Source of the DNA: Seison nebaliae
Taxonomy: Eukaryota
Assembly (NCBI GenBank): GCA_023231475.1
Contig: JALJEE010001441.1
Span: 62,001 to 126,000, forward strand
Direction: 5' to 3'
DNA length: 64,000 bases
In this document: in pieces, positions 11,120 through 64,000 of the stretch
How positions within the stretch are numbered: the stretch's first letter is position 1
Layout of the letters: each line of letters begins with the position of its first letter
Made by a program: the position numbers and the translations under genes
Notes under the pieces: model-generated
Databases searched by the model: none
What the model was told of the DNA's origin: nothing
The model's input: the letters and a program-made list of their open reading frames with translations, nothing else

Positions 11120-11899
11120 TCATTCATTCCCAATATCTCTTCCATTCATTTCGTTATTCTCTTTATTGTCTTTTGGAAGTGGCATATCGTCAGTAATCTT
11201 CAATTGTCCGATAAAACGTAAACTATTTCTCAGTTTCTCTTCCACATCCTTCTTTGGCATCTCGCGTAACTCCTTATGATACTTGCCCAAATTCTTCACG
11301 TCAATATCAGAGATGGCAACTTGGAACAATTGCTGATTCATATTCTCCATCTCTTCCATCATTCTCATCATTTGTGGTGCCGAATTCAATGAGAGACTAA
11401 TATAATGCTTCCAAAAATCAGTTAACGAATGATAACCCAGCTTGCCCAATAAGTCAACACAATACAAAATTTGCTTCATCAAAAAATTCCTCAGTTGATA
11501 ACGCTCTTTAATTTCGGGTTCAACGTTCTGATTCGTCCGATAATCGAATGCACTTCGTGATAATTTCTTTAACAATGCATCCGATTCATAGTTCTTCTCT
11601 CGAACCAAAAACATCAAATAAGCTAAATCAGAATCGTTGAATTCTTTATCTTTCTCTTCAGGGAACTTTCATATGAGAATACAGCAAAAATTTTCATCAA
11701 ATTTATTAACTTTTCGATCAATTTCAGAAACTAGTTGTTTTAAAATAGACGGTTCGTTCAGTAAGTTTGTGTTCTTTTTCGGTATTGATTGTACGGCAGA
11801 ACGCTGGTAAGATTTCGTACTAAAATTCATCTTCTTGGAATCAATATTTAAACTCTCTGATTTGACACATTTACGTCTATTAATGTCCTTCGTTTTCAT
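11120..11899 (-). CDS. Two-exon hypothetical protein (~245 aa)
   Basis: ATG at 11899. A 45-nt intron at 11710-11666 (GTTAAT...GAAAG) joins ORF 11669..11929 (…SEIDRK) in frame to FPEEKDKEF… and ORF 11120..11617. No family recognised. Confidence 0.6.
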
Positions 11900-12807
11900 A
11901 TTGTGCACAAAACTAATTGAACTAAACAAACAAATTTTAGGAATAACTAATTCAACTCAATAATAATTCAATTCCAAATTCAATCTATAAACTCATACTA
12001 ATTTAAACAGAAAATATATTTTTTAAATTAATTATATCTTTTTTCAATCAGATTTTAGTTTTATGTTCAACAATTCCATATTTTTTCTTATTTCAAAATT
12101 ACTGCAATAATTCATGTCAACCTCATATTTCCCAATTTATAAGATATCATGAAATCATTCTTCAAATTTTTAATTTATCATCGTTAAAATATTATCGAAC
12201 AAAAATCTTGTTTAGTTCTATCGAAGTATGTTACTTGTCCTGTTACTAGTATGATAAAAGATAGAATTCTACGAATATATTTGGAATATATTTCTATAAT
12301 TCTATAATAAATAATTGGATTTTCAGTTATGTAGGGAAGAGAAGTTAGAAGAACTGAAACTAACTCATAGTTCCGTGGAAGATAATCCAACAAATTTTCA
12401 ATAATTAATTTTTTAAAGCTCTAACTTGTTGATAATAAAAAAATTTTTAATTTAACTAATATCAAGTAAAGTACCATCTATACAAATAATCTATACAAAC
12501 GTTTTGCATGCTAAAAAGTGAATATATAAGAGAATATTAATCAATATTACTGAGAATATTATATTATATTATAAGAGAATCAAAATGTCCTTTTGAATTC
12601 AGTAGTAAAATGATTTACTAGATGAATTAAATTTACCTAAATTTATACATTATATATATATATTATCCCATTACTAAATCATGCAAATCATAAAATTTGC
12701 TTTGATTGAATAAAAAACAATCGAACCTTTTTCCGACAAAATTCTTTTTTATCATTCAAACTTATCATTCTCAATTGAAACAAATTTTTTTCTATTGTCT
12801 CCAATAA

Positions 12808-13893
12808 ATGGACACTCACAATATATCTTGTGAGAATGTTAGTTCGGTGACAAATGTAAATGGAACTAAAATAATAACGAATTTGAAACGCACATCGGTT
12901 GCCATCAGTTGTCTCAGTATTATAGTCCTACTGTTCTCCTTTTACTATCATGCGAAAAAATTTCTCGCATACCGAAGTCGATTAGAAGAAGCCGGAAACA
13001 ATTTGATATATTATGTTTCTCTGATTTACTTGGAATTATTGATAATTTATCGAAATGTTTTCGGCATTTTAAGTTTATCAGCAACGATTGGTTGGCAAAT
13101 TACATTATTACACGAATATCATAGTTCCATCGCTTGTAAATATTTCCTTTATCAAATGGGTATAGGTGTCGGTACATATTTTATTGTACAAGTTACCATA
13201 AACATAACAATTATTCGAACATGTCGGAAGTTTAAGAAATTTGGAGATACACCAGATGCCAATAATAATATGAAACCAAAATGTTTCCCGTTTTTTCGAA
13301 TTGTGAAATTAATTAAAGGTTCAAACGCAACTTATTTCCATAATATTATCGCTATCTACATTACTCAAATAATTGTTGTAAGTTTGGCAAATGTAATTGC
13401 AGCAATTGACGTCTTCAGACGAGATTCGTACTTGTGTTTCAAACAAAAACCAAATAATTCAGGTGAAGAAAAGTATTTTGAATCTGTTAAGATTCTTGTG
13501 ATTTCTTTCACTTTCTTTGTTTTATTTGCTACGATCATCGCACTATTGGAAGTCAGACAAAATTCGAAAAGTTTAATTGACCAAACTGCGCAACATAAAT
13601 GGATTTACGGTCAACTGCTGGCTAATCGATACTCCCAAATTGTATTTTCCTCATTATTAAACATTGTAGGTGCTCCGTTATTCTTTCTGATTTGGAAACT
13701 GAAGAAGCAAATCGAAGATGGAAATAATATGGCGATTCATTTTCTTTTCGTGTTTACCGTTTCGATAAGAGGCATATCCTTCATATTGGAATTCATTTTC
13801 TTCAAATTTTTCAACAAATCATTCACCGATCCGACAGCTCAACCACCAACATCACCAATTAATGAACATAAAACGGTAACTTTTATTATTTAG
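12808..13893 (+). CDS. Intronless orphan 7TM/GPCR-like protein, paralogue 1
   Basis: 361-aa ORF with N-terminal NxS/T sites and about 7 hydrophobic segments. Shares motifs IYRN, CKY, INITII, DVFRRDSYLC, EKYFES, RYSQ with the neighbouring paralogues. Confidence 0.8.
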   Translation: MDTHNISCENVSSVTNVNGTKIITNLKRTSVAISCLSIIVLLFSFYYHAKKFLAYRSRLEEAGNNLIYYVSLIYLELLIIYRNVFGILSLSATIGWQITLLHEYHSSIACKYFLYQMGIGVGTYFIVQVTINITIIRTCRKFKKFGDTPDANNNMKPKCFPFFRIVKLIKGSNATYFHNIIAIYITQIIVVSLANVIAAIDVFRRDSYLCFKQKPNNSGEEKYFESVKILVISFTFFVLFATIIALLEVRQNSKSLIDQTAQHKWIYGQLLANRYSQIVFSSLLNIVGAPLFFLIWKLKKQIEDGNNMAIHFLFVFTVSIRGISFILEFIFFKFFNKSFTDPTAQPPTSPINEHKTVTFII

Positions 13894-14318
13894 TAATATT
13901 ACTAATATATTTTTATGTTATTAATTAAAAACTATTAATTATTTATTCAATTATTTCGTTAACAACTGTTTGAACATATCTAAAAAGATCATATTAAAAA
14001 ACCGATAAAACAATCTAAACCTGAATATCAAATTTCCTTATGGTCTACTGATTTGGAACCATTTAATTAATATAGGTAATGGAATTATCAGTGAAATAAT
14101 TGGTAATTGATTAGTCTTCCACATCTTTATCAGACTTACTTAGTAATAAGTAATATAATGTTAGTAATATTACATGATGCACCTAAATATGACTGTGATT
14201 GCGTCATATTTCGTAAGGAAAATGAGATATTTCTTAATCGGGGAAATTGAATTAAATTATCGAACGGCGAAGTATGTAAAAATATTTCATAAAATTTATC
14301 TAAAAAATTTAGATTGAA

Positions 14319-15371
14319 ATGAAAAATGTGGATGATAATACATTTCATAATAATTATGTTAATGTTAGCGAAATACATACTATAAGTGAAACACTTTTGA
14401 ATATGAAACATGTGACAATTGCATTCTCTAGTTTAAGTATAATAATACTTTTCTTATCATTTTATTATCATGGTAAAAAGTTCGTTGACTACCGTAAATC
14501 ATTACTCCAAAGTAGAAGCAACTCGAAGCATGACGCATATTTGGTATATTTACAGATGTTGATACTTTATAGGAATATATTCGCGGTCGTTTTTTTAACG
14601 TCGATGATCGGTAAAGAGATCATTTGGATAAAACAATATGGAAGCAAATTAGCTTGTAATTATTGTACTTATCAAGCAAACGTTGGGAATGGAATGGTCT
14701 GGGTACTTCAAGTCATAATAAATATAACAATCATTCGAATGTGTTACGGTTTGGGGAAATTCGAACAATCATCAGAATCAGATAACGATATGAGGAATGT
14801 CTATTGTATTTTCGTTAAACTGGTCAAATCTATCAAGGGTCATGAAGTAACATCTTATCAAATAGTAGTCGGCTCATTTTTCGTACAAATGTTCCTCGTA
14901 ACATTCATCAATTTATTAATACCGATTGATGTCTTCAAAAGAGACACTTATTTATGTTTCAAGATCAAACAAAATTATTCTCAAGCTGAAAAATATTTTG
15001 AATCATTCAAAATTCTCATTGTTGCATTAATATTCTCACTCTTACTGGCGACAATCATTGCTCTAATAGAAACCCGTAAAAAGTCGTCTAGTGTCGACAT
15101 TGTCGATACACATCATAAATGGATCACTCTTCAATATTCTGCTTTTCGATGTTCTCAAAGTCTCTTTTCCTTCTTCCTTGCAATCGTTTCCAGTTTGATG
15201 TTCTTTTCAATTTGGAAACAAACACGAAAAGCCCTCGGCAAGAACAACATTATTATTCATTCTTCATTAATTTCAACAGGTGTAATAAAAGGAATTTCAC
15301 TTCTTTTCGAATTGATATTCTTCAACTTTATCTACAAATCGCCGTCTACAAATATCATATCGACAACATAA
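14319..15371 (+). CDS. Intronless orphan 7TM/GPCR-like protein, paralogue 2
   Basis: 350-aa ORF; motifs LYRN, CNY, INITII, DVFKRDTYLC, EKYFES, RCSQ align with 12808..13893. Confidence 0.8.
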   Translation: MKNVDDNTFHNNYVNVSEIHTISETLLNMKHVTIAFSSLSIIILFLSFYYHGKKFVDYRKSLLQSRSNSKHDAYLVYLQMLILYRNIFAVVFLTSMIGKEIIWIKQYGSKLACNYCTYQANVGNGMVWVLQVIINITIIRMCYGLGKFEQSSESDNDMRNVYCIFVKLVKSIKGHEVTSYQIVVGSFFVQMFLVTFINLLIPIDVFKRDTYLCFKIKQNYSQAEKYFESFKILIVALIFSLLLATIIALIETRKKSSSVDIVDTHHKWITLQYSAFRCSQSLFSFFLAIVSSLMFFSIWKQTRKALGKNNIIIHSSLISTGVIKGISLLFELIFFNFIYKSPSTNIISTT

Positions 15372-15607: not shown

Positions 15608-16434
15608 TTAGTTTAGTGTAGCAAAAATTTTAAATTCAATATATTTTTCTTTCAAATCATGTTCTCCCACTTTCCATAAAATCGACTGGTTTAAATGGAA
15701 GAAACATCCATGCATGATGGTCTTAGGAAAAACTTCTTCGGCTGTCCTGATTGAGCCAATTTCAAAATCTGTCTTTATAGATAAAGGTTTGATAGAAAAT
15801 AATTCAACGTAAGAAGTTTTCCTTCGGTTCTTCATTGCTACAAATATCGCTGAAATCAAGCGATCAATGTATTCCCACAATATGTAATTGGGCATAGTTA
15901 TCAGGACATTTCTTAAATGTCCCGTCCATAGAATAATGATTTTCATTGTAATCTGATGCATCCAAGAACGTGGAATAACAAATTGAATAATTAAGTTCCT
16001 CAATCTTGTGCTGGTACAAATGTTTTGTGCATTCGATTTGAGGAACACCTCTAATATTTCTGTCCATTGTGCTTGGTGGTTGTTTGATATCCCTAATTGC
16101 CACTCGGTTGTTAACCACAATTTCTTTGCCGGATAACGTGGTTGTTTTTTTATATCACCAAGGAGTTTTAATTTGTAGATTTTCTCGGGAATTAGCGGAT
16201 GAGTGTAATAGCTGTTAACCGAAAATATTCTTCCATCTGAAATCATAATGCTACATTTGCAATAATCCATTTTAAATTTACTGTATTGGAAGTTAATTTT
16301 TCTTTGATAAAACAAATTATTGTGAACTGCGATGGCTTTTTTATCTTTCGTAGTGGTGAAAATAATGCACGATTCTCAGATAATGGAAATATGGTCGATG
16401 AAGTTGAATTTATGGAAACAATCGATTGAACCAT
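15608..16434 (-). mobile_element. Degenerate MULE (Mutator-like) DDE transposase remnant
   Basis: MULE motifs are split across frames: MDGTFKKCP…YAQL (15864..16118) and RRKTSYVELF, KTDFEIG, EEVFPKTIMHGCFFHLNQSI (15608..16315). Frameshifted and truncated; no terminal inverted repeats found by eye. Confidence 0.85.
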
Positions 16435-18150
16435 CGAAAAATGAATAAATCATTTATTGACAATTGTGAGTTAGAAAGGGTTATCGTTGAAGTTGAGATT
16501 AAACTATTATCTTTAAGGGATGTTGAACGTTGCAGTGATGATTGAATGGTGAAAGGAAGTGAAATATATGAGAAAGTTACTGGTGGACTAAACATAGGAT
16601 CAGTATAATGTGGGAATGATGAAATTGAATCGAAATGATAATAATTGTGGAATCCATGACATTCATAATGAAAGTTAAAAGTTTTGTAATATGGCATTAA
16701 AATTTTCATCTTTACGCTTCTTCACTTTCAACTTTTTAGGTTTAGTCTCTAATAATTCATCCTAGTATTTACATTTAGTTAACTTAAAAGCCTTTATCAC
16801 CCATATTAGGTGTTCAACTGATTTCAGTTTAGTTTTGCTCCACTATATGGTCTGGAGAAATTTAATAATTCGTAATTGTAGTTTAGTCGCATGTTTGTAT
16901 AAAACATCCTAGTATGTTGTATAGTTCTATTGGCAAGAGTTCTTATGAATCAACATAGGATGTTAAATAGTAAAATACTGTTATTAGGTCTAAAATTGTG
17001 ACATCAAATTACATCAAATTGAAACTGTGATAGTTCCGACTCCCTAGCAATAAATTTCCTATTTATGTTGATTGCGATTGGAAAGGGAACATCTTTCATA
17101 TTCAAAACCATCTTTTTTCAAATTATCTCAAAACGATTAAGAAAATTTATAATTCAGAATCGACGATTCTGCCAATTAAAACCTACTAACAATGTTTTCT
17201 TTCGATTTCTGGCAATTTTCATTGGAAATTTATTTCATATAAAATTTTCCGTTCCAATTATTATGAAGAATTAAAATATACTTATTTAATTAATATATAA
17301 TATAGATTCTATACGATCCTTACTTTAATAAAATATCGGAATTCACAGAATCTTCATGCCAGAAGCAGTCAAAGCAGAAATATGGTTAAGTTCCATACGG
17401 AATTAATCGAATAACTTAATAGAATATTAGAGAATTAAAACTATCTAATGTTATAAAGAATTTGAATATAATTAGAAAGGTTTATACCAAATGTGTATAT
17501 ATATATGTATGTTCCAAATCAAAAACTTATTATACGGATATTATATCGGAATTGAAGTTTGATAGAAAATGTGACCCTTATGACCTAGGAAAAATGGCTA
17601 CATTTCATTCTATTCTCAACCAGAATGATTCTGGTCCAAAATCCTTTCTATTCATCATTCCTTTTACTCATTTTGATGTCGGAAATGATGTTGAATTCCC
17701 AATTAATTTTATAACAATTTAATTTTACTTCAATAGTTATTGAATTCTTTAATCGTAATAAGATAATCTTAATTCATTTATTATCATTTTAACGTCTTCA
17801 TTGAAAATTCAAAAATTTTCATTAATGTAAAATGATTCAATATATTTAATAGAGAAAGAAGATTTAGAAACGTTTAGTTCATCTTTAAATTAATCTAATT
17901 TATTGAACTCTTATGACGTCTGCTCAGTGGATGTGGGTTGTGCTCCAAATAACGAACATTCGAATTAAACTATCGAGCAAAAGATTCATGACACTTAAAA
18001 AATTTCATCTTTTAATAAACTTTAAAAGGAAATTTAATATTGTTAATAAATTTAATAGAAATTTTCATAAAGTATATATATAGGTTTTTATAAAAACCTG
18101 TTCTTCTTGCCAGATTCATTTGGGAATATCAAACTTCTCTTAATTTTAGG

Positions 18151-19203
18151 ATGTTAGAGCAGAATTTAAGTTCGATGGAAAATATCACCAATATGACCAT
18201 GCTGCAAATGAAACATTTATCTATGAAAATTGCGAAAATGTCATTTTGTGGCTGTATCATGATTATCCTATGTTTCTCCACTATTTATTACCTTCGCAAA
18301 TTAAAACGGAAGGAGTCAACCGTTGTGGAATCGATGAATCATTCAGTTGTATCGTTATATTTGATGATACTCTATCGCAACATCTTGAACATAATCAGTC
18401 TACTGTGTATCATTGGGAAGGTGATTCATTCATTTAATGAAAGCATTATCCATTTGTGTTATTTCATCACTTATTTATTAATCGCTGAAAATACGATGAG
18501 TTATATGTTGCAAATTATTCTTAATATTTCCATCATTAAGAAATATCATAATCTCAACAAATATAAAAGAGAATATAGAACCAATGAGAATCCTTCTAAC
18601 AATTCAATTTATTTCAAAATTCATAAACTAGTCAGGAATCGAAATGCTTCTACTTATGAGAATGAAATTGGTATGTTCGTATTGAAAATGGTATTTATCA
18701 CATTATGCGCATTAATTCTATTGTCTGACATGAACGAACATGTGAGAGAAGTATGTTCGACTTTCTCACTTCAGCTTGGATTAGGGATGTTTCTTACTCG
18801 TAATCGTTTTTATAAACTTATCGTTTTTATTTTCATCTTTCTGACACTATTGGGAACGGATATAAGAATGATTCAAAGTCAAAAGAATCAACAACTAATC
18901 GATGACTATCCACAATTCATTTCAATCTATGACGAAATATCAGCGTTTCGATCCTCTCAAATTGTTTTATCTTGGCTAATTCTTTTCAGTACCGGGTCTC
19001 TCTTATTAACGGACAACCAAAAAAACAGTGCTACAGTAACAATATTTTTATCTTTTTTTATGATACTCGTAAATGGATCTTCTTTCTTTCTTGATTTATT
19101 CTTCATTGAATATTATTATAAAAAAAGAAAAAATTCAAAAACAAATCCCGAAAATGAAACAACCACATCACAACCAGAAGAAGATGAAATTGGTGACAAT
19201 TAA
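18151..19203 (+). CDS. Intronless orphan 7TM/GPCR-like protein, paralogue 3 (most divergent)
   Basis: 350 aa; ILYRNIL, LCYF, LNISII, SAFRSSQ and LDLFFIEY match the family pattern. Confidence 0.75.
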   Translation: MLEQNLSSMENITNMTMLQMKHLSMKIAKMSFCGCIMIILCFSTIYYLRKLKRKESTVVESMNHSVVSLYLMILYRNILNIISLLCIIGKVIHSFNESIIHLCYFITYLLIAENTMSYMLQIILNISIIKKYHNLNKYKREYRTNENPSNNSIYFKIHKLVRNRNASTYENEIGMFVLKMVFITLCALILLSDMNEHVREVCSTFSLQLGLGMFLTRNRFYKLIVFIFIFLTLLGTDIRMIQSQKNQQLIDDYPQFISIYDEISAFRSSQIVLSWLILFSTGSLLLTDNQKNSATVTIFLSFFMILVNGSSFFLDLFFIEYYYKKRKNSKTNPENETTTSQPEEDEIGDN

Positions 19204-21035: not shown

Positions 21036-21668
21036 TCAATTATTTTAAGCTTCCCAATAAAAACTTCATATTTTCCTTCAATTTTTCATCATTCACCACA
21101 AATATATTTTCATATAATTTCATTATTCGACAATTCTTTCTAGTAATCAATTCAACAAACATTCTCCTGAATTAATTTAAAATTATTAAGCGGTAACAAA
21201 AAATTAACAATAATAATTAACACTTAATGTTAAACATTAAAATTGCATAAATTTAAAATTATTTGTAATATTCGTACAATGATGAATTCAGTTCAACTTG
21301 CATTTATTTGCTCAATTTAAATCTACAATCATTGAGTCATGTATTTTTTAATTTGTCTTATATTAAATCATAAATATTAAATTAATCACATTTCTATGTT
21401 TGATGTTCCATTAACAGTTTTTCGTCCTTTTTTTATAAAAGAGTCTTAGGATTTCCACATCATTATTAAGGTACGAATTATTTAAAATTATATTACTAAT
21501 TGAACATTAATGTTTAGCAAATAAGATAACTAAATACCTTACAAATAGTCCTACTATAATTTCCCATCCAAACTAGTTTTCTAACTTTTCCTAAAGATCT
21601 TTAGTAAACTTTTTTGAAATTAAATTTCAAGACAATTTCCAACAATTTTGGTTTCAAAAAATTTTATA

Positions 21669-22688
21669 ATGAATTTGACGACAAAAAATGAAACAAATTC
21701 GGATGATTCACTTTCAATAGTTGTAAAACTGAAATATATTCGAATATCAATAAATTCTTTGAGTATGATACTAATGACAATTTCGATCATATACCATTTC
21801 AGAAAGTTCCTGAAATACCGCCAAAGAATGTTAATTGACACATCGATTAATTTAGGTTTCATGAAGAAAATGAGCTTTGTCGAATTATTTGTAATATATC
21901 GAAATATTCTCATCTTCACATCGTTATTGGCATATTCGATATTGGATATAAATGTTTTGACGAATAATATTAACAATTATGTATGTAAATATTCGGTTTT
22001 TCTCATACATTCATGCAACGGCACTTATTTGATAATTCAATGCGTCATTAATATAAGCACCTTGAAGCTGTTAAAGTTATTTAATATGAAAAATCATAGT
22101 ACGGATGAAGCGATTGCCAATAATTTAAAGATAGAAGAAAAATGTATTTGTTTCAAAATGGTTAAAATTATTTATAACGTGACAATAAATTCTTATCGAG
22201 ATATGATCGGATCTTTTATCTTTATAATAATTTGTGCCACCTCATTCCAAATTTGTTCGTCAGTTGATGTGTTTTTTCGAAATTCTTATTTGTGTTCAAA
22301 AATTCATCCGAATGCGTCATCAGCAGAAAAATATTTTGAATCGATAAAAATTCTTGGAACAACAATCGTATATTGTTTGGTGTTAGCAACGACAATTTCA
22401 ATGTTGAGTACTCGAAAAATTGAAAAATTTTCTAACTTCAAAAGAATTTTCTATCAAGTTACCGCGTTGCGATATAGCCAGATATTATTCTCCTTATTCA
22501 CTTTTTCAACTAGTGCCCCTCAATTCTATATGTATTGGTCGCGAACAAAGAACCTTAGGAAAAATTATTCTATAATCATCCAATGTTTCTCCATTCTCAC
22601 TAATTTCAACCGAGGAACTCCTCTCATATTAGATCTATTTTTTTTCGAATATTGTTACAAAACATCAAACATCATTTCTTCTACTTAG
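21669..22688 (+). CDS. Intronless orphan 7TM/GPCR-like protein, paralogue 4
   Basis: ATG at 21669 (MNLTTKNETN…); motifs IYRN, CKY, INIST, DVFFRNSYLC, EKYFES, RYSQ, LDLFFFEY. Confidence 0.8.
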   Translation: MNLTTKNETNSDDSLSIVVKLKYIRISINSLSMILMTISIIYHFRKFLKYRQRMLIDTSINLGFMKKMSFVELFVIYRNILIFTSLLAYSILDINVLTNNINNYVCKYSVFLIHSCNGTYLIIQCVINISTLKLLKLFNMKNHSTDEAIANNLKIEEKCICFKMVKIIYNVTINSYRDMIGSFIFIIICATSFQICSSVDVFFRNSYLCSKIHPNASSAEKYFESIKILGTTIVYCLVLATTISMLSTRKIEKFSNFKRIFYQVTALRYSQILFSLFTFSTSAPQFYMYWSRTKNLRKNYSIIIQCFSILTNFNRGTPLILDLFFFEYCYKTSNIISST

Positions 22689-26080: not shown

Positions 26081-27598
26081 ATGTTTTCAAGTTTGAGAAC
26101 GATTAAACACAAATCTTCGACAGTTAAGACAATTTCTTTTCATTTTCTATTTCATCATTATTTCACAGATAACAAATCTTGTAAGAAATTCATCCGGATT
26201 TTCATTTAGTTAATTTTTTCTTGTTCTCTATTTAGTAAATGGTAATTTGTCAGATTTAACGGACGAACAGAAGGATTATGTTTCTATGACAAAGAAATTT
26301 GTGAAAGAAGAAATCATTCCTGTGGCGGCTAAATACGATAAATCTGGTGATGTTAATTTTAGTTTTGAATTTGGAAGATTGTTAATATTCAATTGTAGTT
26401 TCCGTGGCCGATCATAAAGAAAGCTCATGAAAATGGGTTAATGAACGGATTCATACCTCAAGCATATGGTGGTATGGGCTTAAGTGTACTTGATGGTGTA
26501 TTGATAGGAGAAGAGATAGCTTATGGTTGTACCGGTATCGGTACGGCGTTAGAAGCAAATGGCCTAGGAGTTGGAATCTTTTATGATGCTAAATCTAAAT
26601 TTATATCTAATAGTGTGCACCAGTCATGTTAGCTGGATCAGAAGAACAAAAGAAGAAATATTTAGGACGGTTAACGGAAGAACCGATGATGTGTGTTAAT
26701 TTTTTTTCATGTAATTTTTTGTTAGAATGAAATTTTCAAAAATTTAGGCTTACTGCGTAACAGAACCAGGTGCAGGTTCTGATGTTGCCGGTATTAAAAC
26801 GAAAGCAGTAAAGAAAGGAGACGAATATATTTTAAATGGATCGAAAATGTGGATAACGAATGGGGGACATGCCAATTGGTATTTCGTTTTGGCTCGTACA
26901 GATAGTCAGGCAAAAGATGCATCCAAAGCCTTTACAGGTTTCATTGTAGAAGCTGATACTCCAGGAGTTATTAAGGGTAAGAAGGAAATTAATATGGGAC
27001 AACGGGCGTCCGATACCCGAGGAATTACATTTGAAAATGTTCGAGTGCCTAAGGAGAATATGTTGGTGGCCGAAGGAGCCGGTTTTAAGATAGCTATGGG
27101 TGCTTTTGATAAAACTAGACCACCTGTAGCAGCTGGTGCTGTGGGTTTAGCAAGACGTTGTTTAGATGAAGCCACAAAATATGCAATTGAAAGGAAAACC
27201 ATGGGGCAACCAATCGCCGCTTATCAATCCGTTTCATTTATGTTGGCGGATATGGCAATTGGTATTGAATCATCTCGTCTCTGTACTCATAAAGCTGCTT
27301 GGATGATTGATAACGGTATTCGCAACACCTACATGGCAAGTATTGCTAAATGTCTAGCGGGAGATGTGGCTAATAAAAGCGCAACAGATGCAGTTCAGGT
27401 GTTTGGCGGTGCTGGATTCAATACTGAATATCCAGTCGAGAAATTGATGAGAGATGCAAAAATTTTCCAAGTTTTTACTTAACTTCTTTCAAGTTCTACT
27501 TTTTTCCCCTAAAGTTATATGAAGGTACTGCTCAAATTCAACGATTGATCGTTTCACGAACTCTTCTTGCTAAAGCGGCTAAAGGTGAAGATTTGTAA
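26081..27598 (+). CDS. ACADM: Medium-chain acyl-CoA dehydrogenase, mitochondrial (7 exons)
   Basis: Motifs [63 protein letters not shown]. Introns at 26123-26168, 26209-26253, 26352-26398, 26570-26613, 26695-26747, 27471-27514. Confidence 0.95.
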
Positions 27599-27735
27599 AA
27601 AACTTTTTCTTTTTCCGAAAGTTTTTGGAGACAAACAACAAAATTCTTAGCTCATATTGGAAACATAATAAAATTTAAGTATTTAATTTATTTTCTTCCT
27701 CTCACAACAAAAATAACTCATCGACGAACTTAAAG

Positions 27736-28105
27736 ATGTCGTCGGCTATGGTATATGGAAAGAAAAATTTCCAACCTTCTCCACCTCAAAAAGGAGTTTT
27801 CCCTTTAGACAGAAAAGGTTTTCATCAATTGAATATTTGTAATTTAAATCAGATTTAATGAATGAATAATGAAATTTTCATTCTTAAAAAAGGATTATGT
27901 AAAGAGGCGTTTATCGAATATATGGATTGTTTGACGAAGAACAAGAATGAAAGTGTAAAATGTCGTGAACAATCGAAACATTATTTGGAGTGTCGAATGC
28001 AAAAGTTTTCTTTCAGTTCAATTTTCACTTTTCATGAAAATTTCTCAATTCGTCAGTCGTTTAATGTTGGAGGAGGATCTCTCACATTTTGGATTTCGTT
28101 CATAA
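27736..28105 (+). CDS. COX19: Cytochrome c oxidase assembly factor COX19 (twin CX9C), 3 exons
   Basis: Spliced product MSSAMVYGKKNFQPSPPQKGVFPLDRKGLCKEAFIEYMDCL…KCREQSKHYLECRMQNRLMLEEDLSHFGFRS*. Introns at 27818-27892 and 28005-28056. Confidence 0.92.
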
Positions 28106-28196
28106 AAATATCATTTTAATTCTCTTTAAATTTCCGAGCTCTTCGAAAATTTTTAAATAAAATTTTCTCTTTTTTTTCTCAAATGATTTTTGGAGA

Positions 28197-31286: not shown

Positions 31287-31393
31287 TTAATTTCATCGAA
31301 TCGTCGCCCACTCTCGATGATTAATGAACTTCTATTAATGAAAAGTAACGCTGGATAGTCGCATTTTTGAGAAATATACATCATCATTCATAT

Positions 31394-35297: not shown

Positions 35298-38200
35298 ATG
35301 AATGAAAAGAAACTTGATCAAGAGAAATTAGAAGAGTTTTCCTTTCTACTTCCAAACAACATTTTCATTTTTCATTCGTAAATTTCCTGTCGAATAAAAT
35401 AATCAATATTTTTAGTGCAAGCAAACATACAAATAAAAAAACTCCGTCATCGATGACGACAATATTCTCGAAGAATAAATACACAGCGAAAAATAATTGG
35501 ACAACGGTGAAAGGCGGTTCCTCCAAAATTGTTTTCCGGGTGATAATCGCTTCCTTAATTATCCTACTTCTACTATTGGTCTTATGGATGACATTGTTCA
35601 TCTACTACAAAGTTCAGTATGAGAAACGGCGATCATTTAATGAAACTAATTCACCTTATCGTCGATATTCCTTGAAATCGATAGGTAATATTTGTGTAAC
35701 CGAAGAATGTATAAAGTCAGGTTAGACATTTGATTATTAAATAAAATTTAAATATTTCATGTAGCTGCTTTCCTGATGTCAAATATGAATACGAGTGTCG
35801 ATCCTTGCGAGGATTTCTATTCATTTGCATGTGGCAATTTCGTAAGGAAAACAATTATTCCAGAAGAACATTCGATATTCACGTTGTTCACGATTCTAAG
35901 AGAGAGATTAAACAACGACATTGTACGTTCGTTTTTCTTCTATTCCTCAATTCAAATTTCTGTGTTAAATAGAAATTCTCAATCGGAACGAGAAACATTC
36001 GGTGGATACGTTGCAGAACGTCCAGAAATATTATAACGCTTGTAAAAATGAAAGTTAATTTATATAACTAATGTCTAATATAAATTATGGTTTAGGTTTA
36101 ATCGAAGCGCGAGGAGCCGAACCTCTGAAAGAGTTCATAACGAACGAGATTGGTGGATGGCCGTTACTCCATAATTATTGGCGTGAAGAATCTCAATTTG
36201 ATATTTGGAAACAGATAGTGAAAATGAGACGATTGAACAATATGATGATTGTCGGTATTTCATTGACGACGGACGAGAAGGATTCTTCCAAATATGTTCC
36301 ATCAGTTAGATAACTTAACATTCTACTTTCGAATGAAATAGAAATGTCAATTCTTCAGTTTCATCAAATCGCACCCACATTAACGCCATGGGAACATTAT
36401 ATTGAGGGCGAAAAATTAGGATTCCATAATTATTCGATAACGAAAGGTTATATGAAATTGATAAAGAAGATAGCCATCTTGTTAAAAGATGACGGGACAA
36501 CCGAAGAATATATTGATATGCAAATTGATGAAATGATGAATTTGGAATATGATATTGCTAAAGTTTCCTTCTCTTCTCCATTCCTTCTTTCTATTATTCT
36601 TAAAGAATCTCTTGACCAAAGCACAACAAAGAAATCGAGGAAAATATACGGTGAGGAAGAAGTTGTGGCAAATAGAGAATGAATTTCCCAGAGTTATTTT
36701 TCCCCTCTAAATAAAAGACCAAGTGTTTATTTACAATATTTTTCAGTTACCTGTACGTCGACTGCTTAACGAATTGATTGGAAAAGATAAAATTAAAGAT
36801 GACGATATCGTAGTCGTTTATGACAGTGCTTACATAAGGAAAATTCATCAGATTGTTCAGAAGTATAGTAAAAAGTTAAGTTGAATTTTGAAAATAAAGT
36901 AAATGCAATTTTATCTTTTCTAGAACTTTAGCGAACCACATCGCTTGGAGTATCATCTACAATAGAATAAGAGACATGCCGAAGAAATTCCGTGAGAATC
37001 AATACGAATATTTCAACATTTTGACAGGAACGTCGAAAGAGAAACGTCGAGAATTGATTTGTGCCACTTTAGTTAACGCAGCACTCGGTATGCCAGTCGG
37101 ACGATTATATGTTGATTCATTTTTTAAAGATAATTCAAAAAAAGAAGTTTTCAATTTAATTTTAATTAATTTCATCATTTATTTCTCATCTAAGGCATTG
37201 GGCATCATCCAAAATATTCGAGATACATTCAAACATACGATCGAAACTGCCCAATGGATGGAACCGACTGACAAGATTGTTGCGAAAGAAAAAGTTTCGA
37301 ATTAATTATCTTCCCTAAAATCATTTTATTTTTTAGATTAATGCCATTATAACGAAGATCGGATATCCGGAATATATAATGAACAATACGGAATTGAATA
37401 AAGAATTTCGTCGAGTTCCATCTTCATAATTTCTATTTTCTTCAAATGATTCCCGTTGCAGTATAAATTTAAAGAAGAAGATTATTTCGGAAACATCATT
37501 CAAAATCTTAAAATTAAATGGACTGAAGATCTTGAACGATTCTCATTACCGGTCAATAAAAAAAAGTTAAGAGTAATTTCAATTTGTTTATTCATCTTCT
37601 CTTTCCAAAAGATGGGTCACATATCCGGCTATTGTCAATGCATTTTATTCGACTCATAAAAATCAAATAAGTTAAATTTTCATTTAAATAAAAAAATTAA
37701 ATAATCAATTTTATTTCTTAAACAGTTTTTCCTGCTGGAATATTACAACCGCCTTTCTATCATGCCAAATATCCGAAATATTTGAATTATGGTGGAATCG
37801 GAATGGTGATCGGACATGAAATAATTCATGGCTTTGACGATGAAGGTTCATCCAATATTCAATTTTAATTTAATAATTAATTAATTATTTTAAAATTTTC
37901 TTATCGTTTTTAGGACGACGTTATGATTTGAATGGTAATCGGAAGTCTTGGTGGTCGAATTCGACGATTGAGAATTTCACGAAATTGAAGAAGTGCTTCA
38001 TCGACCAGTACAACGGTTTCTGCTTCTCGGATATTGATAAGAGTGCTTGTGTAAATGGAGTGCAGACTCAGGGGGAGAACATTGCTGATAATGGAGGTAT
38101 TAAACAAGCTTTTAAAGTTAATTTCATGATAAAAAAAGAAAAATTCAAAATATAAAAATGTTTTAGGCATATCGGAAATACATTGGGAAATTGGGTCATG

Positions 38201-38491
38201 AAGAATCGGTATTACCCGGATTAGATTTGTCACCAAATCAATTATTCTTTGTAAATTATGCTCAAGTTAGTACCGCTCTCCTATTTAGATTATTATTATT
38301 ATTATTATTGTTAGTCTTGGTGCTCAAAAGGGAGAAAGAAGGAGATATTAAACGCCTTAAAAACTTCAGTTCATTCACCGAATAAATTCCGAATTTATGG
38401 TGTTGCTAAAAACTCGAGAGATTTCGCTAAAGCCTTCTCTTGTAAGAAGAAGAGTGAAATGCATCCGGAAACGAAATGCGATTTATGGTAA
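35298..38491 (+). CDS. Neprilysin/ECE-family (M13) type II membrane metallopeptidase, 17 exons
   Basis: N-terminal [32 protein letters not shown], zinc motif [18 protein letters not shown]-terminal CDLW*. Sixteen introns of 42-80 nt, all starting GTT, restore the frame. Confidence 0.93.
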
Positions 38492-38621: not shown

Positions 38622-39841
38622 TTATTTCTTTTTTTTCTTCTTTGATGATTTCTTTCTGACACTCTTCTTCTTCGTTTGATAAATAATTGGTGTTTCCACT
38701 ACTTCATCTGGTGGTAAATAAGGGAGTAGAATCTCCTTTAAATCTTCTCGTTTACATAAATTTGGAATTAATTTATACAGGAATACCAATGTGAATTCTT
38801 TCGGGGATGGAATGAAAGTCGATGTAAAATCATGATGTGTTGTCGATATGGTTAATTTGGTTGGTAAATGGAGTCTGGTATGGAAACGGAAACTCACCGG
38901 TTCCTTATATATCCGTCCAAGGTTTCTATGTTGTGAATGGTATTTGGTGAACGGCGACAAATGTTTCTCCATCATTTCATAATATTCGTAAGAGAATTGA
39001 TAATTATTGTCGACGAGAGAATGTTTCTTTCGATCTAAAAAATCTTTTTTGAATTTATCATATTTCTCTTCCACCACCCGATCATTATCATAATCATCAT
39101 CTCTCTCAATTGATGGTTTTGTTCGAACATTATCAATCGATATATTTTTTTGGATAGAGAAATCTAATGATCGAAATGTATCATCCGTTTGATGATGACG
39201 AGCTAAACGACTTTTCCATTGATATTTGGCTGACGGTTGAAAATTTGTTATTCTTCTTGACGTATTTCTACTTGTAGCAGTCATGGCTCTGGGATAAGGC
39301 ACCGGATTGAATTTCAAATCATTAGAATTTCCATTCTTGTTGGAATATAATTGTCGATGAATATAAAATTTGATATTGGGATGGAATGAACAATTTCGTT
39401 TTAATAAAATTTTTATTATCTTTAAAACGAATTTTAGAAATGAAAAATTTTAAAAAAAATTCTACTTTCAAATTACATTGAAGAATGGCATAATCGAATA
39501 TTGTGAAATTCTTATAATCCTTCCGATTCAAAATCAGATTACTCTTCTCATTTTCCGGCAATATGGACAGCAAATGTTGTAAAACAAATTCATTTTTGTT
39601 GATTATGGATCGATGGAATATCGTCTGTCCATTATAGTCGATCATGTTCAATTTCGGAGAATGTTCCAATAAATGTAGAATTTTCAAAATATCATTATTG
39701 ATCACCGCCGAAAAAAGAGTGCATGAAATATCACCTTCCGATGCCAAACGATGAATCTCCTCGTCATAATTTAACATTTGACCGAAAACTTTCTAAAATA
39801 TTTTCAGGTTATTTGTTCTCCGATAAGAATGGAACGTACAT
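38622..39841 (-). CDS. Ankyrin-repeat protein with Lys-rich C-terminus (3 exons)
   Basis: Ankyrin-like segments DYNGQTIFHRS and DYKNFTIFDYAILQCNLKIIKILLKRN. Introns at 39835-39793 (GTTCCA) and 39465-39420 (GTAGAA). Confidence 0.75.
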
Positions 39842-50848: not shown

Positions 50849-53837
50849 TCATTTTTTTTTTATAATAAAATTGGTTTGAGTTGCTTGTCGATAGAAACGA
50901 GCTTTATTTGACTGTTTATGTTCAAATATCACTTCCGGTGATTCTTGATCTCTTTCTTTCTTTTCTTCGTTTTCTTTCTTTGTTACTTTTCTTTCTTCAT
51001 CTATTACAATCTCATTAAAAGTGCTGGTAGAAAACTTGCGATCGTTATCAATTATTGTTGAATAATCTATTTTTTGTGGTGGTAAACTTGTTTTGGCGAT
51101 TGCTAAAAGAGATTTATGAGAATTAAAAGAATTTCAAACATTTGCTAATTTAGTGGTGCACGACTTAATGACGAAAAAGATGCAGATAAAAGAATAGCGA
51201 GAAAATCTAATAGAATTTGTAAAGAAGTATTTCCGAAAATTTTAGTTAAACTCAAAAATAGCAAGATTAATCAGATTAATAGGAACGTTTTCTTTTCGAG
51301 ATTAATATCAAAACTTACTTCATAAACGAAAATTGATGAACAGGAAAATAATATAGAGAAATTAAAAGAAACGATTTCCATCGAATACGATTCTTTAAAA
51401 TGAACATTATCAATCATGTGATGATAAGCGTCAACTAACATTTGTTATCCAAATCTATATAAGAAACATTTCCACTGTCACCGGTTGTAGTTTGTTGTTC
51501 GTATAAAGATTTTGGGTTGTCTATTTTTTCGACTATTTCAAAAACAGTTTCGATAAGAAAACAATATTAGAATTTATATTAAAACTAGAAAATAACTTGA
51601 AATACTCGAGTCACTATTTGTATTGAGTGTATTGTTAATACCGGACATAAAATTTCCATTCTCCATTTTAATTTTATATTTTGATTCTAAAAAGAAAATT
51701 TTAATTTATTGATTTCATTAAAAGTATTTACCATAATTACTCAATTTTTGATTTATGTCCTTCCGTTTCTTTCTTAATCGATGTGGAGGTTCTAAAAATT
51801 AGATGTTATTTCGTTGTTATAGAAAATTGAACTATGATGTTTATGGACTATGGGCTGATCAATAGTTTTTCTTAATTTTACGGCATTCAATTTCGTTTCG
51901 GTAATTGTTCGTATTTCATTTGGAGGTTTTTGTTGTATTTGTCTGTTCGACAATCTGTTCTCATTCTCATCATCTTCATCCATTCGATGAGTTAAAGTTT
52001 CAGTCGATGAACGTTTCAACATCACTTTTTTGGGTGGATTACGTGTAGGACTGGGTGTCTTTCTAAACGAATCGCTATAGAAAGGAGAAGATCTGATATC
52101 GATCTTCTTCGGTGGTAAAGTAGACCGAAATTTTGACATTCGATATTTCTTCTTTTGAGGAAGTTTCTTTCTCAATTCAGTTTTCAATTTCTCGATCGTT
52201 TCTTTCACTAGTCAAAAGATGAAATAAATACACATTTTAAAAAGTCGAAACTTTCTTCATCATTCTTCATTTCTTCTTCGATTATTTCCTGAAGTCCGTC
52301 TTCTATCAATTCAGTCCGTTCTATCTGAGATTCGTCGTCACTCTTCTCAGGCTCTTTTAACGATGTGTTACTTTCTTCTTTACCTTTCTCTTGTGGTTTC
52401 TTCTTCTTTCTCCTTTTTCTTTTTCGTTTTTCTAAGAATTTCTTCGTCAGAACAATATCTGCACGCAATTTCACTCGATTCAATACTTTCCCAAAAACGA
52501 TTTTTCGATTTTCGATGTTATAACCGTCGTGTTTGGTTGGAAAGAAAATTTCGTGTGCACATCTTGTTTCAAATAGAATTTGTAATAATAACGCTGGAGA
52601 AATGATAAGTTGAATGAGAATTGAAAATGATTTGTTTGAGAACCTTTATTTCTTCTCATTTCTTCTAATAATTCATCAGGATCAATTCCTTCAATTAAAC
52701 ATCGTTTCCTGATATCTTTCTCTTCTTGATCCATATTCGGATCATTGTCAATCGCCTCTAATGCACGACGTAATCTCTCAGCTGCTTCTCGTTCTTTCCG
52801 CTTCTCTTCCTCCAACTTTCTTTTTTCTTCATCCAACTTTCTTCTTTCCTCATCTAATTTCCTTTTTCGTTCTTCTTCTAATCTCCGTTTCTCTTCCTGA
52901 ACGATTTGTAATTTACGTTTTTCTTCTTCTTCTTTCAATTTCTTCCGTTCTTCTTCTTCCAATCGTAATTTTTCCCGTTTTTCTAATTCGGATTATACTG
53001 TAATTTATTGAAATATTTTCAGGGATAAAACTTTCTTCTTCGATCAATTTCTGTTTTTCTGCTTCCTCATCAACGTAACAACATTTGCAATTCTTCTTGC
53101 AACATATCGTAAAACGACGATGACAACTCGGCACGAAACAGAATATGAGTAGTAAAATAATTAAACCGATTAATAAGAGACTGAAGAAAACGGCAATACC
53201 AGCAACCGCACCAGAACCTATTCGAAGACAATATAATTGAAAATTTGAAATTTAAATGTGAACTTATTCCTGTTGGGGCTACCGTGGTTGGTGGGATGAC
53301 TATAATTGGAGTGGTCGTAGTTGTGGTGGTGGATTTGCAAATTGCCGTTTCAGCCGGAGCATTAGCCAAAGTGTATTCTGATAAAGGCAAAGTGGTAGAC
53401 CGTTTAATACAAGTCCCCACATTATAACATTGTGATGGTTGGACCTGATAGAAATATACGAGATTACCAGCTGTTATATGAATCTAAAGGAAATTGTCAA
53501 TAAAGTCAAATCAAAAATGAATGTCACTTTGTCGAATGTAAATTCTAACCGTATCTGGACACCAATATTCGGAAGAGGAGAATTCATTACCATTTACTAA
53601 TATACGGACGAGAGCTCCATAATTTAAATCATTCGAATTCTTCGATACATCTTTCTGATTCTCGGGTAATGTAACTGGCATATTTTTGAAGCTACCAATC
53701 ACTACTATGTCCAACTCATTATGAGTGTCGGTAGTTAATGCTTCATTTCCAATGATTTTCACTTTAAGGACGATAGAGTGGACGAATGTGAAAGTGACGA
53801 ATATGAGAAGGAGATTAGATGTATATTTTCGTTTCAT
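50849..53837 (-). CDS. Type I membrane protein: signal peptide, divergent PLAT-like domain, Thr stalk, TM, long charged cytoplasmic tail (~10 exons)
   Basis: Nine introns give a continuous frame through ORFs 53511..53837, 52480..52962, 52208..52483 and 51792..52208. TM AVAGIAVFFSLLLIGLIILLLIFCF is followed by a Cys cluster. Exons below 51.7 kb are less certain. Confidence 0.65.
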
Positions 53838-56853: not shown

Positions 56854-57900
56854 ATGAAATTGATGTTGTGTAAAATAATCTCAATATTTTTTTTCCTTCT
56901 AAAAAATTCATGTTCTGTTTTTTATTCAAACAAACTTGACTTTTCTTTATTAACTAGTCGCGGAAAACCTGTATTATGTTCATGCATTCACCAATGGTCA
57001 ACTCGACGATGGAGGAACGAACGCCACTGTTATATTCTCTTTCACGTATGAAACAGGTTTCTTCATTTTTCATTCAATTGAAAGTTCATTTGAATTTAGG
57101 AAATGAACAAGTACTCATCGGAGGAACACAACCGTCTGACAACGGTCATTCGACCATGTTTGAAAAAGGAGTGTATGATTTTTATATTGCGGTGAGAAGT
57201 TCGGAAACGGATCATGGTGTTCTAAAAAGTCTCGATATTACATTAGACGATCCAAGCGATCGATGGTGTTTTGATGGAGTTTAGTAGATTTAATGAAATT
57301 CTTTTAATATTTCTTCAGCTTCGCATTATAGATAAAGTCGATAATCGTATGTATGAATGGTTCTCTACGAACTGCTCCTTATGCAACGGTGCCCGCACTT
57401 ATACGACTGGTTTTTCTACGGTAGCTGACTATATTGCTCCCCCAAGTTATTATTTTTCAATTTAAATTTTAATTCAATCTAAATAAATAAGGTGATTTTA
57501 TTTCACCTTGTGATGAAGTATTGCCATCATCAACACCGAAACCAGAAAAGAAAAGTTAAATTTTCATTCAATCAAAATATTTTGTATCAGATTATAAAAT
57601 TATCAGACAACACAATTATTATCATCGTGGTTGTTTTAGTTATAGTATTAATTGGCGTAGCTATAGCCGTTATAGTTGTGGTGATGTTGAAGAAGAAAAG
57701 TTTATTCGATTTCTAAACTCTTTTTTTTTCTAATTCTTTTATTTTCAGAATCACCTAACATGAAAATCGGGAAGTTTTCATTTTTATAATTTTAAAAAAT
57801 TTTTCATATATTTCTATTTAGTGGTCGAAGTGCTCCAACATCTGCATCTACCATATCAAGTCATTTCGATCCTACTGATAATGAAATGAATAATAATTAA
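56854..57900 (+). CDS. Type I membrane protein with extracellular PLAT/LH2 domain (8 exons)
   Basis: Signal peptide, then YYVHAFTNGQLDDGGTNATVIF…MFEKGVYDFY…DHGVLKSLDITLDDPSDRWCFDGLRIID…MYEW, which follows the PLAT consensus. TM IIIIVVVLVIVLIGVAIAVIVVVML. Seven GTT introns. Confidence 0.75.
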
Positions 57901-62348: not shown

Positions 62349-62649
62349 TTTCAGTTTAATTTAATCAACAAAGAAAGACCAAATTTTTTATGGAAATAAA
62401 ATAATGAAGAATAAAGTAATGCAGAGAAATTATCGATTATCCATTTTTAAATTTATGATAATCATTTTTGTTCGAACTAATAATGAACTCATCTTGTAAT
62501 CAATTTAATTTTATTTGTATTAATAAATTTAGAAAAAGTTAAATTTATTTTTTAATTTAATAAAATTTCCCTTAAATTTCTTCATTCTCTTCATTACAAT
62601 GATTCATTCAATCATCTCTCCTCGATTTCCTCATATTAATTTTCAAGTG

Positions 62650-64000
62650 TTATTGTAATTTAGGCATCTGAACTTTCTTCATATAACTATCGCTTGATAA
62701 TCCACTTTTATCCAAAGTTGTCGGAGTAGATTCATGAGTGCCTGCATTAGTGCTATCTTTCGACTTCGATCCAACATGATATAGAGCTACATCCATCACT
62801 TCGTTTATTAATTCTTTTTCACTTTTATCTTCCGAATCTCTCAATTTCTCCACTTCCAAACCGAGCATTTCATCGAAAAATGTATTACAATCAATTTGTT
62901 CAGGAAGTAGACTATCGATGATATTTTCTGAAATTTAAAATTAATTACGAAAACATTTATTTGAATATATAAAGAGACCTGCATTTTCTGTGGTTACCAC
63001 GTCCTGTTGTTCATCTTTTAAATGACGAAGAGCAATAAATGCATTCGCTAATTCAACATAAGTCATCGGTTCACCTTTCGTTGTCATTAGTTCGATGAAA
63101 TCCTGTCGTTTTATCGACATATCTCCACTTAACATATCGTCGAATGTCTGATCTCCGTTTCCGAAGACCAGATTGGCCGATTGAGATAGAACATCTGGAG
63201 TTAAACCGAATGAATCTCGATGATTCAAATAAAGTCTGATGAAGTTCGGTAGATTGATATGTTCCGTCAACATATTCGTCTGAGAGAAGTTCTCATATCG
63301 AACTTCGTTCAACATATTTTTAATTTCTTCTTCTGATGGATAATATCCGAGAGTTCTCAAAACGAATGGAATCTCTTCGATTGGAATTGTATTCCCAATA
63401 TTTCTTTCTTCGTCTACCATAATTGTTTGATTTCTCAATTGTGCAAAATAAAAGACATTTTCCAATTCTTTAAATAATTTCCCATTTCGACCACCATCCA
63501 TCAATAAGAGAAATGGTGATAATTCGTCTTCACCATAAACAGCTTTTTGAGCTTCTAAAGTTTGTGTGCAAACATTCCATTGATGAACAGATTCATCTTT
63601 ATGACCAGCAGTAAATACATAACGACCATCATAAGAACAAGCCACATTTGACACACGAGTTGGATGTGCTAAAACTGCACTGACATCATATGGATTTCCG
63701 ATTAACGGTAATCGTTGGATACCCAATTGATTTTTCGTAATAAAAATTATATAATTATTTTCCGATTCTTTCTCTGAATTACTCCCAAATCGTTGAGGCA
63801 AAGCTATAATTTTTTGGACAGGTGTCGAATAAGTTGGAGCTATGATGGTTTTCCGACATAGTTTTGTGAAACTGTTGAACATTTTAAATTTCCATTCATT
63901 ATTAGCAATCACTAAAAAATATTCACTTTTCTCTTTTTCGTGAACATCGTCAGCTCTCAAATTTCCTGGTAACCATTCCATACATATTGGAATAGCCGAT
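62650..64000 (-). CDS. CFAP251: Cilia- and flagella-associated protein 251 (WDR66), 3' part; 5' end lies outside the window
   Basis: LPLIGNPY…AHPTRVSNVACSYDGRYVFTAG, FYFAQLRNQ, IPFVLRTLGYYPSEEEIKNMLNEV, FIELMTTKGEPM. Intron at 62978-62928 (GTCTCT...TTTCAG). Confidence 0.88.

What the first reader, a model, noticed from the sequence alone, without database searches (positions are those of the whole stretch)
11120..62978. Rewired 5' splice-site code: almost all introns begin GTT, none GTAAG
Seen: about 59 of 63 hand-reconstructed introns start GTT, including 16/16 in neprilysin, 6/6 in ACADM, 2/2 in COX19, 3/3 in C1D and 4/4 in NF-YA. In these genes most junctions are fixed by protein conservation. 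The exceptions are 2 GTA and 2 GTC, and positions +4 to +6 are nearly free (GTTTTT, GTTCCA, GTTGGA). Established: the major-spliceosome donor is GTRAGT, with +3 read by U1 snRNA nucleotide 6 and +5G read by U1 and by the U6 ACAGA box; T at +3 is normally a minority. Inference: this lineage has changed donor recognition, for example through a compensatory U1 5' end (ACUAAC instead of ACUUAC) or altered U1C/U6/Prp8 contacts. AT-richness alone would not exclude A at +3. Caveat: junctions in the orphan genes were my choice and could be biased towards GTT.
Basis: partly seen in the sequence, partly recalled or inferred. Interest (0 to 1): 0.9.

Follow-up and report, generated by a model that had tools for sequence, protein, structure and literature searches.

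The report
Rotifer introns that start GTT
In this DNA from the marine rotifer relative Seison nebaliae, nearly all introns that could be placed begin GTT instead of the usual GTA/GTG, likely because the U1 splicing RNA that reads intron starts has changed to match, a change we found in print only for an amoeba.

Summary
Confirmed at DNA level; no RNA was available. Two window genes match proteins labelled Seison nebaliae at 100%. With donors left free, homolog profiles place 20 of 20 testable introns on GTT; with deposited models and two frame-fixed cases, 31 of 32; the full catalogue gives 53 of 57, against 43% background. New here: exon -1 is A (36/57), not G; weak exon ends are offset by AGT at +4..+6, so the register is unchanged and the ideal donor is AA|GTTAGT. 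Four of four human neprilysin boundaries seen in print coincide, so old introns were rewritten, not inserted. Best mechanism (inferred, about 50%): U1 nucleotide 6 is A, as in Entamoeba; U1 and U6 are not in the window and were untestable. Not found in print for this animal. The scan noted GTT donors earlier in protists (Bonamia, foraminifers), not animals. New variant of a known kind.

The parts
35298..38491 (+). Neprilysin-like (M13) gene = deposited SNEBB_005701; 16 introns (donors 35336, 35721, 35927, 36054, 36305, 36563, 36693, 36875, 37147, 37294, 37415, 37566, 37671, 37846, 38117, 38266), all GTT
   Evidence: exact protein-to-DNA mapping; homolog-only test for introns 2-16; human neprilysin alignment
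26081..27598 (+). ACADM gene; 6 introns (donors 26123, 26209, 26352, 26570, 26695, 27471), all GTT
   Evidence: profile of 103 homologs, donor-agnostic; MCAD structures
50849..53837 (-). Orphan membrane protein gene = deposited SNEBB_005709; 9 introns, 8 GTT
   Evidence: exact mapping; the donor-neutral finder returns the same 9
51687..51731 (-). Exception: intron with ATG|GTAAAT donor
   Evidence: deposited model, finder margin 1.5
39420..39465 (-). Exception: intron with AAA|GTAGAA donor in an ankyrin-repeat gene
   Evidence: finder margin 11.2; Pfam Ank
50175..50224 (+). Exception: TAG|GTCTCA donor in the 49132-50839 gene (LicD-like by recall; no Pfam hit); its three other introns are GTT
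   Evidence: finder margin 5.3; Pfam blank
62928..62978 (-). Exception: CAG|GTCTCT donor in a WD40 gene (CFAP251-like by recall)
   Evidence: finder margin 9.8; Pfam WD40/EML
40354..40748 (-). 395-nt NF-YA intron, AGT|GTTAGT, splitting the CBFB_NFYA domain; three upstream NF-YA introns (42036, 41939, 41097) also GTT
   Evidence: Pfam profile 2-33 before and 35-56 after the junction; frame check
27818..28056 (+). COX19-like CHCH gene, 2 introns (27818-27892, 28005-28056), both GTT
   Evidence: Pfam CHCH; frame check
44032..44657 (+). C1D-like gene (name recalled, no Pfam hit on single exons), 3 introns (44173, 44373, 44481), all GTT
   Evidence: finder, frame check
57057..57821 (+). Orphan membrane protein gene, 6 introns, all GTT
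   Evidence: finder and frame check
45716..46323 (+). Q-rich orphan gene, 3 introns, all GTT
   Evidence: finder only
11120..62978 (.). Remaining GTT donors: 11710(-), 16327(-), 19623(-), 24852(+), 47197(-, septin), 58600(+), 58825(+)
   Evidence: finder only; margins 0.2-24.5

Best explanation
Introns in this Seison nebaliae DNA are short GT-AG introns whose donors read AA|GTT, with AGT at +4 to +6 as a back-up, and the spliceosome likely reads +3U through an adenosine at U1 snRNA position 6 (ACUAAC in place of ACUUAC). Shown: +3T in 53 of 57 donors, T over C, -1A/-2A enrichment with no -1G enrichment, and a trade-off between the exon end and AGT at +4..+6 in the normal register. Inferred: U1 A6 pairs +3U; the exon AA end is read mainly by the uridines of U5 loop 1 (or by a U1 that also has U at position 9); +4..+6 still face the U6 ACAGA box; ancestral introns were rewritten to GTT, probably through a stage with two U1 variants or relaxed +3. 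I put the changed donor code at about 0.9 and the U1-A6 step, given that, at about 0.55.
For: Counts and controls. A-pairing signature: T 53 vs C 2, where composition predicts about 20% C (P 6e-4). Unchanged register: exon score vs AGT(+4..+6) Spearman -0.36, P 0.007 (n=57), and -0.41, P 0.02 in the 32 homology/annotation introns; against the +1-shifted motif -0.02. All 8 donors with a pyrimidine at -1 have +6T (P 7e-4) and 5 of 8 have +5G (P 0.007). Three of the 4 non-GTT donors have -1G against 10 of 53 GTT donors (P 0.034), as expected if -1G:C9 rescues a lost +3 pair. Precedent: the one lineage found in print with near-universal +3U, Entamoeba, has a U1 candidate with ACAAAC and a normal U6 ACAGA (bioRxiv 10.1101/2022.06.08.495308, passages and section 22). 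The U5/U6 trade-off is described in PMC10581693 (passages). Old positions.
Against: U1 and U6 were not seen. Most lineages with atypical donors (+4 changes in yeasts, Giardia, Trichomonas, Mamiellales, Thecamonas) keep a canonical U1. A single change at U1 position 6 predicts -1G, but -1G is at chance level (13 vs 10 expected, P 0.19) and -1A is enriched (36 vs 20.6, P 3e-5; synonymous sites 17 of 19 vs 12.6, P 0.016). A U1 with both changes separates real from decoy GTT slightly better (AUC 0.73 vs 0.66, intervals overlap). The trade-off was first noticed by eye and then tested on the same data, with several tests. Both GTC exceptions read AG|GTCTC, which would pair well with the canonical U6 ACAGA and fits rival 1. 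No RNA junction was seen; 25 of the 57 catalogue introns rest on ab initio calls; how the deposited models were made is unknown.
Confidence: 0.5

Rival explanations
1. U1 is canonical or matters little; +3 is checked later, at hand-over to U6/U5/Prp8, where +3U pairs with the G of the U6 ACAGA box (wobble) or with an A if that G has changed, while U5 loop 1 reads the exon AA.
For: The Entamoeba preprint notes that +3U could add pairing to U6 ACAGA. -1 shows A > G >> pyrimidine relative to expectation (36/20.6, 13/10, 8/26.4), the signature of a uridine partner. +3 is a pyrimidine in 55 of 57; both GTC donors read GTCTC. The exon/AGT trade-off is the U5/U6 pattern.
Against: An unchanged G should accept C at least as well as U, but C is depleted (P 6e-4). 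U6 ACAGA was invariant in 240 fungal genomes and is kept in Entamoeba.
Confidence: 0.25
2. Canonical U1 pairs one base downstream (shifted register), so that -1A, +1G and +3U take the roles of -2A, -1G and +2U.
For: Explains -1A and +3T together with no snRNA change. Shifted and bulged registers exist in mammals (PMC9311317 passages; Roca & Krainer 2009 seen only as a reference there). Earlier scan notes propose it for protists (unchecked).
Against: It predicts +6G: 7 of 57 (P 0.08) and 0 of 8 among weak-exon donors. No trade-off with the shifted motif (rho -0.02), and pairing scores are no better than the normal register (AUC 0.65 vs 0.66).
Confidence: 0.1
3. A protein (U1C, Luc7 or a TIA1/Nam8-like U-binding factor) has changed specificity and imposes +3U with canonical snRNAs.
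For: TIA1/Nam8 bind U-rich sequence downstream of donors and contact U1C; introns here are 47% T with +7T at 34 of 57. Protein changes explain +4 switches in yeasts (abstract title and passages).
Against: Near-invariance at one position next to GT is easier to get from base pairing; no spliceosomal gene was identified in the window to examine.
Confidence: 0.08
4. No change in recognition: AT-biased mutation, mass insertion of GTT-ended elements (introners), or biased junction choice produce the pattern.
For: GT is followed by T in 43% of cases window-wide and 39 of 79 cases inside introns. No RNA confirmation.
Against: A is 35% of intron bases but 2 of 57 at +3 (P 1e-8). Homolog scoring was donor-blind; the finder returns GTA when donors are recoded. 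Introns are barely more alike than shuffles (mean local score 9.8 vs 9.3-9.4) and lack target-site duplications (4-mer match 2 of 57). Four of four printed human MME boundaries coincide.
Confidence: 0.05

Closest known systems
Entamoeba GUUUGU donors with co-evolved U1 (ACAAAC); bioRxiv 10.1101/2022.06.08.495308, passages and section 22 read
   Same: U at +3 in nearly all introns; normal pairing register; GT-AG introns.
   Different: Entamoeba is intron-poor with a strict hexamer (88-90% GUUUGU). Here: an intron-rich animal (16 introns in one 3.2-kb gene), 27 different hexamers among 57 donors, none GTTTGT, +4 mostly A, and an AA exon end. U1 not seen here.
Standard U2-type GTR donors, CAG|GUAAGU (PMC9311317, PMC9869432, PMC12447723 passages)
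   Same: GT-AG ends, YAG acceptors (47 of 57), residual +4A/+5G/+6T, intron positions shared with human neprilysin.
   Different: +3 is T instead of R; -1 is A instead of G; no branch-point motif above shuffles.
U5-class vs U6-class donors and +4 A/U switches in Saccharomycotina (PMC10581693 passages)
   Same: Negative correlation between exon-side and +4..+6 strength.
   Different: That switch is at +4, tied to METTL16, with invariant U1 and U6; here the switch is at +3 and -1.
Shifted-register atypical human 5' splice sites (Roca & Krainer 2009; seen only as cited in PMC9311317; their sequence features recalled)
   Same: A|GTT start.
   Different: Rare exceptions in humans; the downstream motif is slid by one base, which is not supported here.
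Earlier scan notes: GTT donors in Bonamia ostreae and foraminifer-like protists (unchecked AI notes)
   Same: GTT-dominated or GTT-rich donors.
   Different: Protists; Bonamia introns are 19-32 nt with GTTT; foraminifer donors are a shifted second class in about half of the introns.

Membership tests
U2-type (major) spliceosomal introns | GT-AG ends whose removal restores a conserved reading frame | tested here: met
U2-type (major) spliceosomal introns | Donor consensus GTR with -1G | tested here: not met
   +3 R 2 of 57; -1G 13 of 57, at chance level. This is the typical consensus, not a strict requirement.
U2-type (major) spliceosomal introns | Branch-point motif upstream of the acceptor | tested here: inconclusive
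   None of 9 motifs above shuffles in -32..-6
U2-type (major) spliceosomal introns | Removal seen in RNA | not testable with these tools
   No RNA holder listed; laid contigs were unspliced
U12-type (minor) introns | Donor RTATCCTT (motif ATATCC in PMC3033335) | tested here: not met
   0 of 57 donor hexamers is GTATCC
Entamoeba-type transformed donor system | Near-universal +3U | tested here: met
   53 of 57
Entamoeba-type transformed donor system | Strict GUUUGU hexamer | tested here: not met
   0 of 57 GTTTGT; +4T 20 of 57; +5G 12 of 57
Entamoeba-type transformed donor system | Compensatory U1 5' end | not testable with these tools
   No Rfam hit in the window; no genome held
Shifted-register 5' splice sites | Downstream consensus slid by +1 (+5A, +6G, +7U) | tested here: not met
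   +6G 7 of 57; no trade-off with the shifted motif
Shifted-register 5' splice sites | Rescue by shift-specific suppressor U1 | not testable with these tools
   bench test
Introner elements | Sequence similarity among introns and target-site duplications | tested here: not met
Introner elements | Novel intron positions | tested here: not met
   4 of 4 human MME boundaries seen in print coincide; the other positions were compared from recall only

The most novel reading that the evidence does not exclude
Seison is the first animal with a rewired U1 snRNA (A at position 6, perhaps U at position 9), and its whole complement of ancestral introns was rewritten from AG|GTRAGT to AA|GTTAGT without massive intron loss or donor stiffening, a route to a new splicing code unlike that of intron-poor Entamoeba.
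Probability: 0.45. Interest if true: 0.85.

Novelty: new variant of a known kind. Interest (0 to 1): 0.7.

Why it matters
GTR is treated as general from yeasts to mammals and is built into aligners: miniprot penalises GTT/GTC donors by 8 and minimap2 prefers GTR..YAG, so genes of this lineage can be mis-spliced in silico. Biologically, an intron-rich animal whose old introns moved to +3U and -1A is a natural experiment on which snRNA or protein enforces each donor position, and on how thousands of sites co-evolve with one core RNA. Printed cases of U1 compensation are few and amoebozoan. The test is cheap: read U1, U6 and U5 from the public assembly and map the RNA-seq that PMC8351084 reports for the species.

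Tried and rejected
No whole genome held. Rfam scan of the window: 0 hits. Sequencing runs: no RNA holder listed; 5 of 7 rows hold the stretch. The two laid holders cover 25901-39640 unspliced with 0 differences in their long contigs, show no intron joints among the rows listed (table cut), and may be the window's own source; X6 and X7 laid nothing. So nothing here bears on expression. A metagenome scan for intron-bearing ACADM orthologs as an AT-rich control returned 80 loci with unbroken full-length matches, best 76% identity; not examined further and no use as a control. The first ab initio run chained genes through spurious introns and was retuned. Branch-point motifs: none enriched. Automatic phase was wrong for 2 of 57 introns and was corrected. 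ACADM human intron positions could not be confirmed in print (0 papers; one search gave only the c.599/600 boundary, which lies inside an uninterrupted exon here); the match to c.216, c.387, c.468 and c.1194 uses plus recall. Davis 2007 and Roca & Krainer 2009 were not held. Pfam gave no names for the C1D-like, LicD-like and 57-kb genes. The ESM Atlas did not answer for an orphan. Rejected: U12-type, introners, AT drift, reader bias; shifted register disfavoured.
Full report
Source. The window is compact, about 30% GC. Exon queries retrieved two proteins at 100% identity labelled Seison nebaliae: P0121 (SNEBB_005701, 791 aa) and P0302 (SNEBB_005709, 748 aa). The window is therefore most likely from this epizoic rotifer relative (Seisonidea). 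No genome was held, no RNA family lies in the window, and no run on record as RNA was listed. The two holders laid were unspliced contigs. All evidence is DNA, homology and deposited models.

Observation, independent tiers. P0121 maps exactly with 16 introns; each has a single GT-AG placement and all begin GTT. To remove dependence on that model I built profiles from other proteins (103 ACADM homologs of the 120 listed, chosen by length; 96 M13 proteins of 150, leaving out the top hits, among them a Seison paralog named) and scored every stop-free GT/GC-AG alternative with no donor preference. Neprilysin introns 2-16 and ACADM introns 2-6 all fall on GTT (20 of 20; P 5e-8 at the 43% background), by 7.6-31.3 bits where a rival existed; GTAAGA (26181), GTAATT, GTATAG and GTACGT rivals lose. 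Neprilysin intron 1 is unresolved by homology. The NF-YA junction at 40748 gives gapless Pfam continuity. P0302, an orphan, has 8 GTT and 1 GTA. Together 31 of 32.

Observation, ab initio tier. A gene finder trained on intronless frames, with acceptor and length models from 22 known introns and no score for +3, called 55 introns in 19 loci: 45 GTT, 6 GTA, 2 GTG, 2 GTC. One GTT call (40744) was replaced by 40748. Controls: recoding donors to GTA returns 51 of 55 GTA; antisense spurious introns are 25 of 54 GTT. The catalogue is 53 of 57, 58 of 62 with five frame-checked additions, or 58 of 64 with the two dropped calls. Median length 48 nt, range 38-395.

Anatomy of the donor. -2 is A in 38 of 57 (20.7 expected, P 3e-6), -1 is A in 36 (20.6, P 3e-5) and G in 13 (10, P 0.19). 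At synonymous phase-0 sites A is used 17 of 19 times (12.6 expected, P 0.016). +4A 25, +5G 12 (P 3e-4), +6G 7 (P 0.08), +7T 34. Weak exon ends go with AGT at +4..+6 (rho -0.36, P 0.007; -0.41 in the independent 32), not with a shifted motif (rho -0.02); I saw this by eye before testing it. Three of four non-GTT donors have -1G (P 0.034). Acceptors are TAG 30, CAG 17, AAG 10; no branch-point motif exceeds shuffles. So the best donor is AA|GTTAGT: the standard AG|GTAAGT changed at -1 and +3 in the same register.

The introns checked are old. Reading the alignment to human neprilysin (offset checked against p.V440_K472del) with the codon phases, introns 4, 5, 9 and 10 fall at c.439, c.654, c.1317 and c.1416, the four human boundaries seen in PMC6764622 passages. 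Ten further neprilysin and four or five ACADM positions match human boundaries by recall only (ACADM exons map to precursor residues 73-129 and 157-398). Introns are not a repeat family and lack target-site duplications.

Mechanism. T over C at +3 (P 6e-4) and exclusion of A (P 1e-8) point to an adenosine partner. In the normal register +3 faces U1 position 6 (U1 5' end and consensus in PMC9311317) and later the G of U6 ACAGA (positions 2-6 pair with ACAGA). The only near-universal +3U system found in print, Entamoeba, has A at that U1 position and a normal U6. I therefore favour U1-A6 (0.5 overall), with the AA exon end read by U5 loop 1 uridines (recalled geometry; U5/U6 trade-off) or a second U1 change (AUC 0.73 vs 0.66, overlapping). 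Against: most lineages with odd donors keep a canonical U1. Rivals: U6/U5-level reading (0.25), shifted register (0.1), protein specificity (0.08), neutral or artefact (0.05).

Literature seen. PMC8351084 (passages for intron, splic, snRNA, annotation: gene compactness only, no donor analysis, RNA-seq reported; supplements not seen and could hold related data); PMC10125929, PMC12690905, PMC11347168, PMC3033335, PMC4557819 (passages, nothing on GTT donors); PMC9869432, PMC12447723, PMC10581693, PMC9311317, PMC6764622 (passages); the Entamoeba preprint (passages, section 22; supplements closed); PMC5069600 (listing only). Searches found no description of GTT donors in Seison or rotifers. The library lacks most subscription papers, and the study behind the SNEBB annotation was not seen. 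Earlier scan notes hold GTT donors in protists only.

Verdict. New variant of a known kind; interest 0.7, limited by a 52-kb sample, no RNA, no snRNA and no relatives.

Noticed in passing
window 12808-13890, 14313-15368, 18094-19200, 21624-22685 (+): Four intronless orphan frames of about 350 aa, hydrophobic and alike in layout, look like a local family of multi-pass membrane (receptor-like) proteins; no Pfam hit.
   Followed up: partly
window 51439-51103 (-): The 337-nt deposited intron holds a perfect GAA|GTAAGT at 51318, and the opposite strand there looks coding; a missed exon or nested gene is possible.
   Followed up: no
window 35336 vs 35378 (+): Neprilysin intron 1: the deposited model uses an 80-nt GTT intron over an in-frame 38-nt GTAAAT intron; a direct test of donor choice once RNA is mapped.
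   Followed up: partly
window 50175 (+) and 62978 (-): Both GTC donors share AG|GTCTC, close to complementary to the U6 ACAGA box in the normal register.
   Followed up: partly
window 40354-40748 (-): The long NF-YA intron contains about five imperfect copies of a 40-45 nt AT-rich unit.
   Followed up: no
window 15611-16375 (-): MULE transposase domain fragment (Pfam E 4e-5, below cut-off), with a predicted GTT intron at 16327.
   Followed up: no
window 29964-30145, 33245-33429, 39333-39640, 42624-43595: Low-depth contigs about 80-85% alike overlap these places in both laid runs, suggesting a diverged second genotype or paralogs; orthologous donors could be compared.
   Followed up: no
window 56957-57278 (+): With the 57057 intron removed the N-terminal part resembles a PLAT/LH2 domain (recalled; no Pfam hit on single exons).
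   Followed up: partly
window 26748-27470 (+): One ACADM exon spans human residues 157-398, across at least one human intron position (c.599/600), so intron loss occurred here while neprilysin kept 16 introns.
   Followed up: partly
window 42475-43893 (+), 47183-48268 (-), 28161-31283 (+): RING1-like (RING + RAWUL), septin and F-box genes are nearly or wholly intronless.
   Followed up: no
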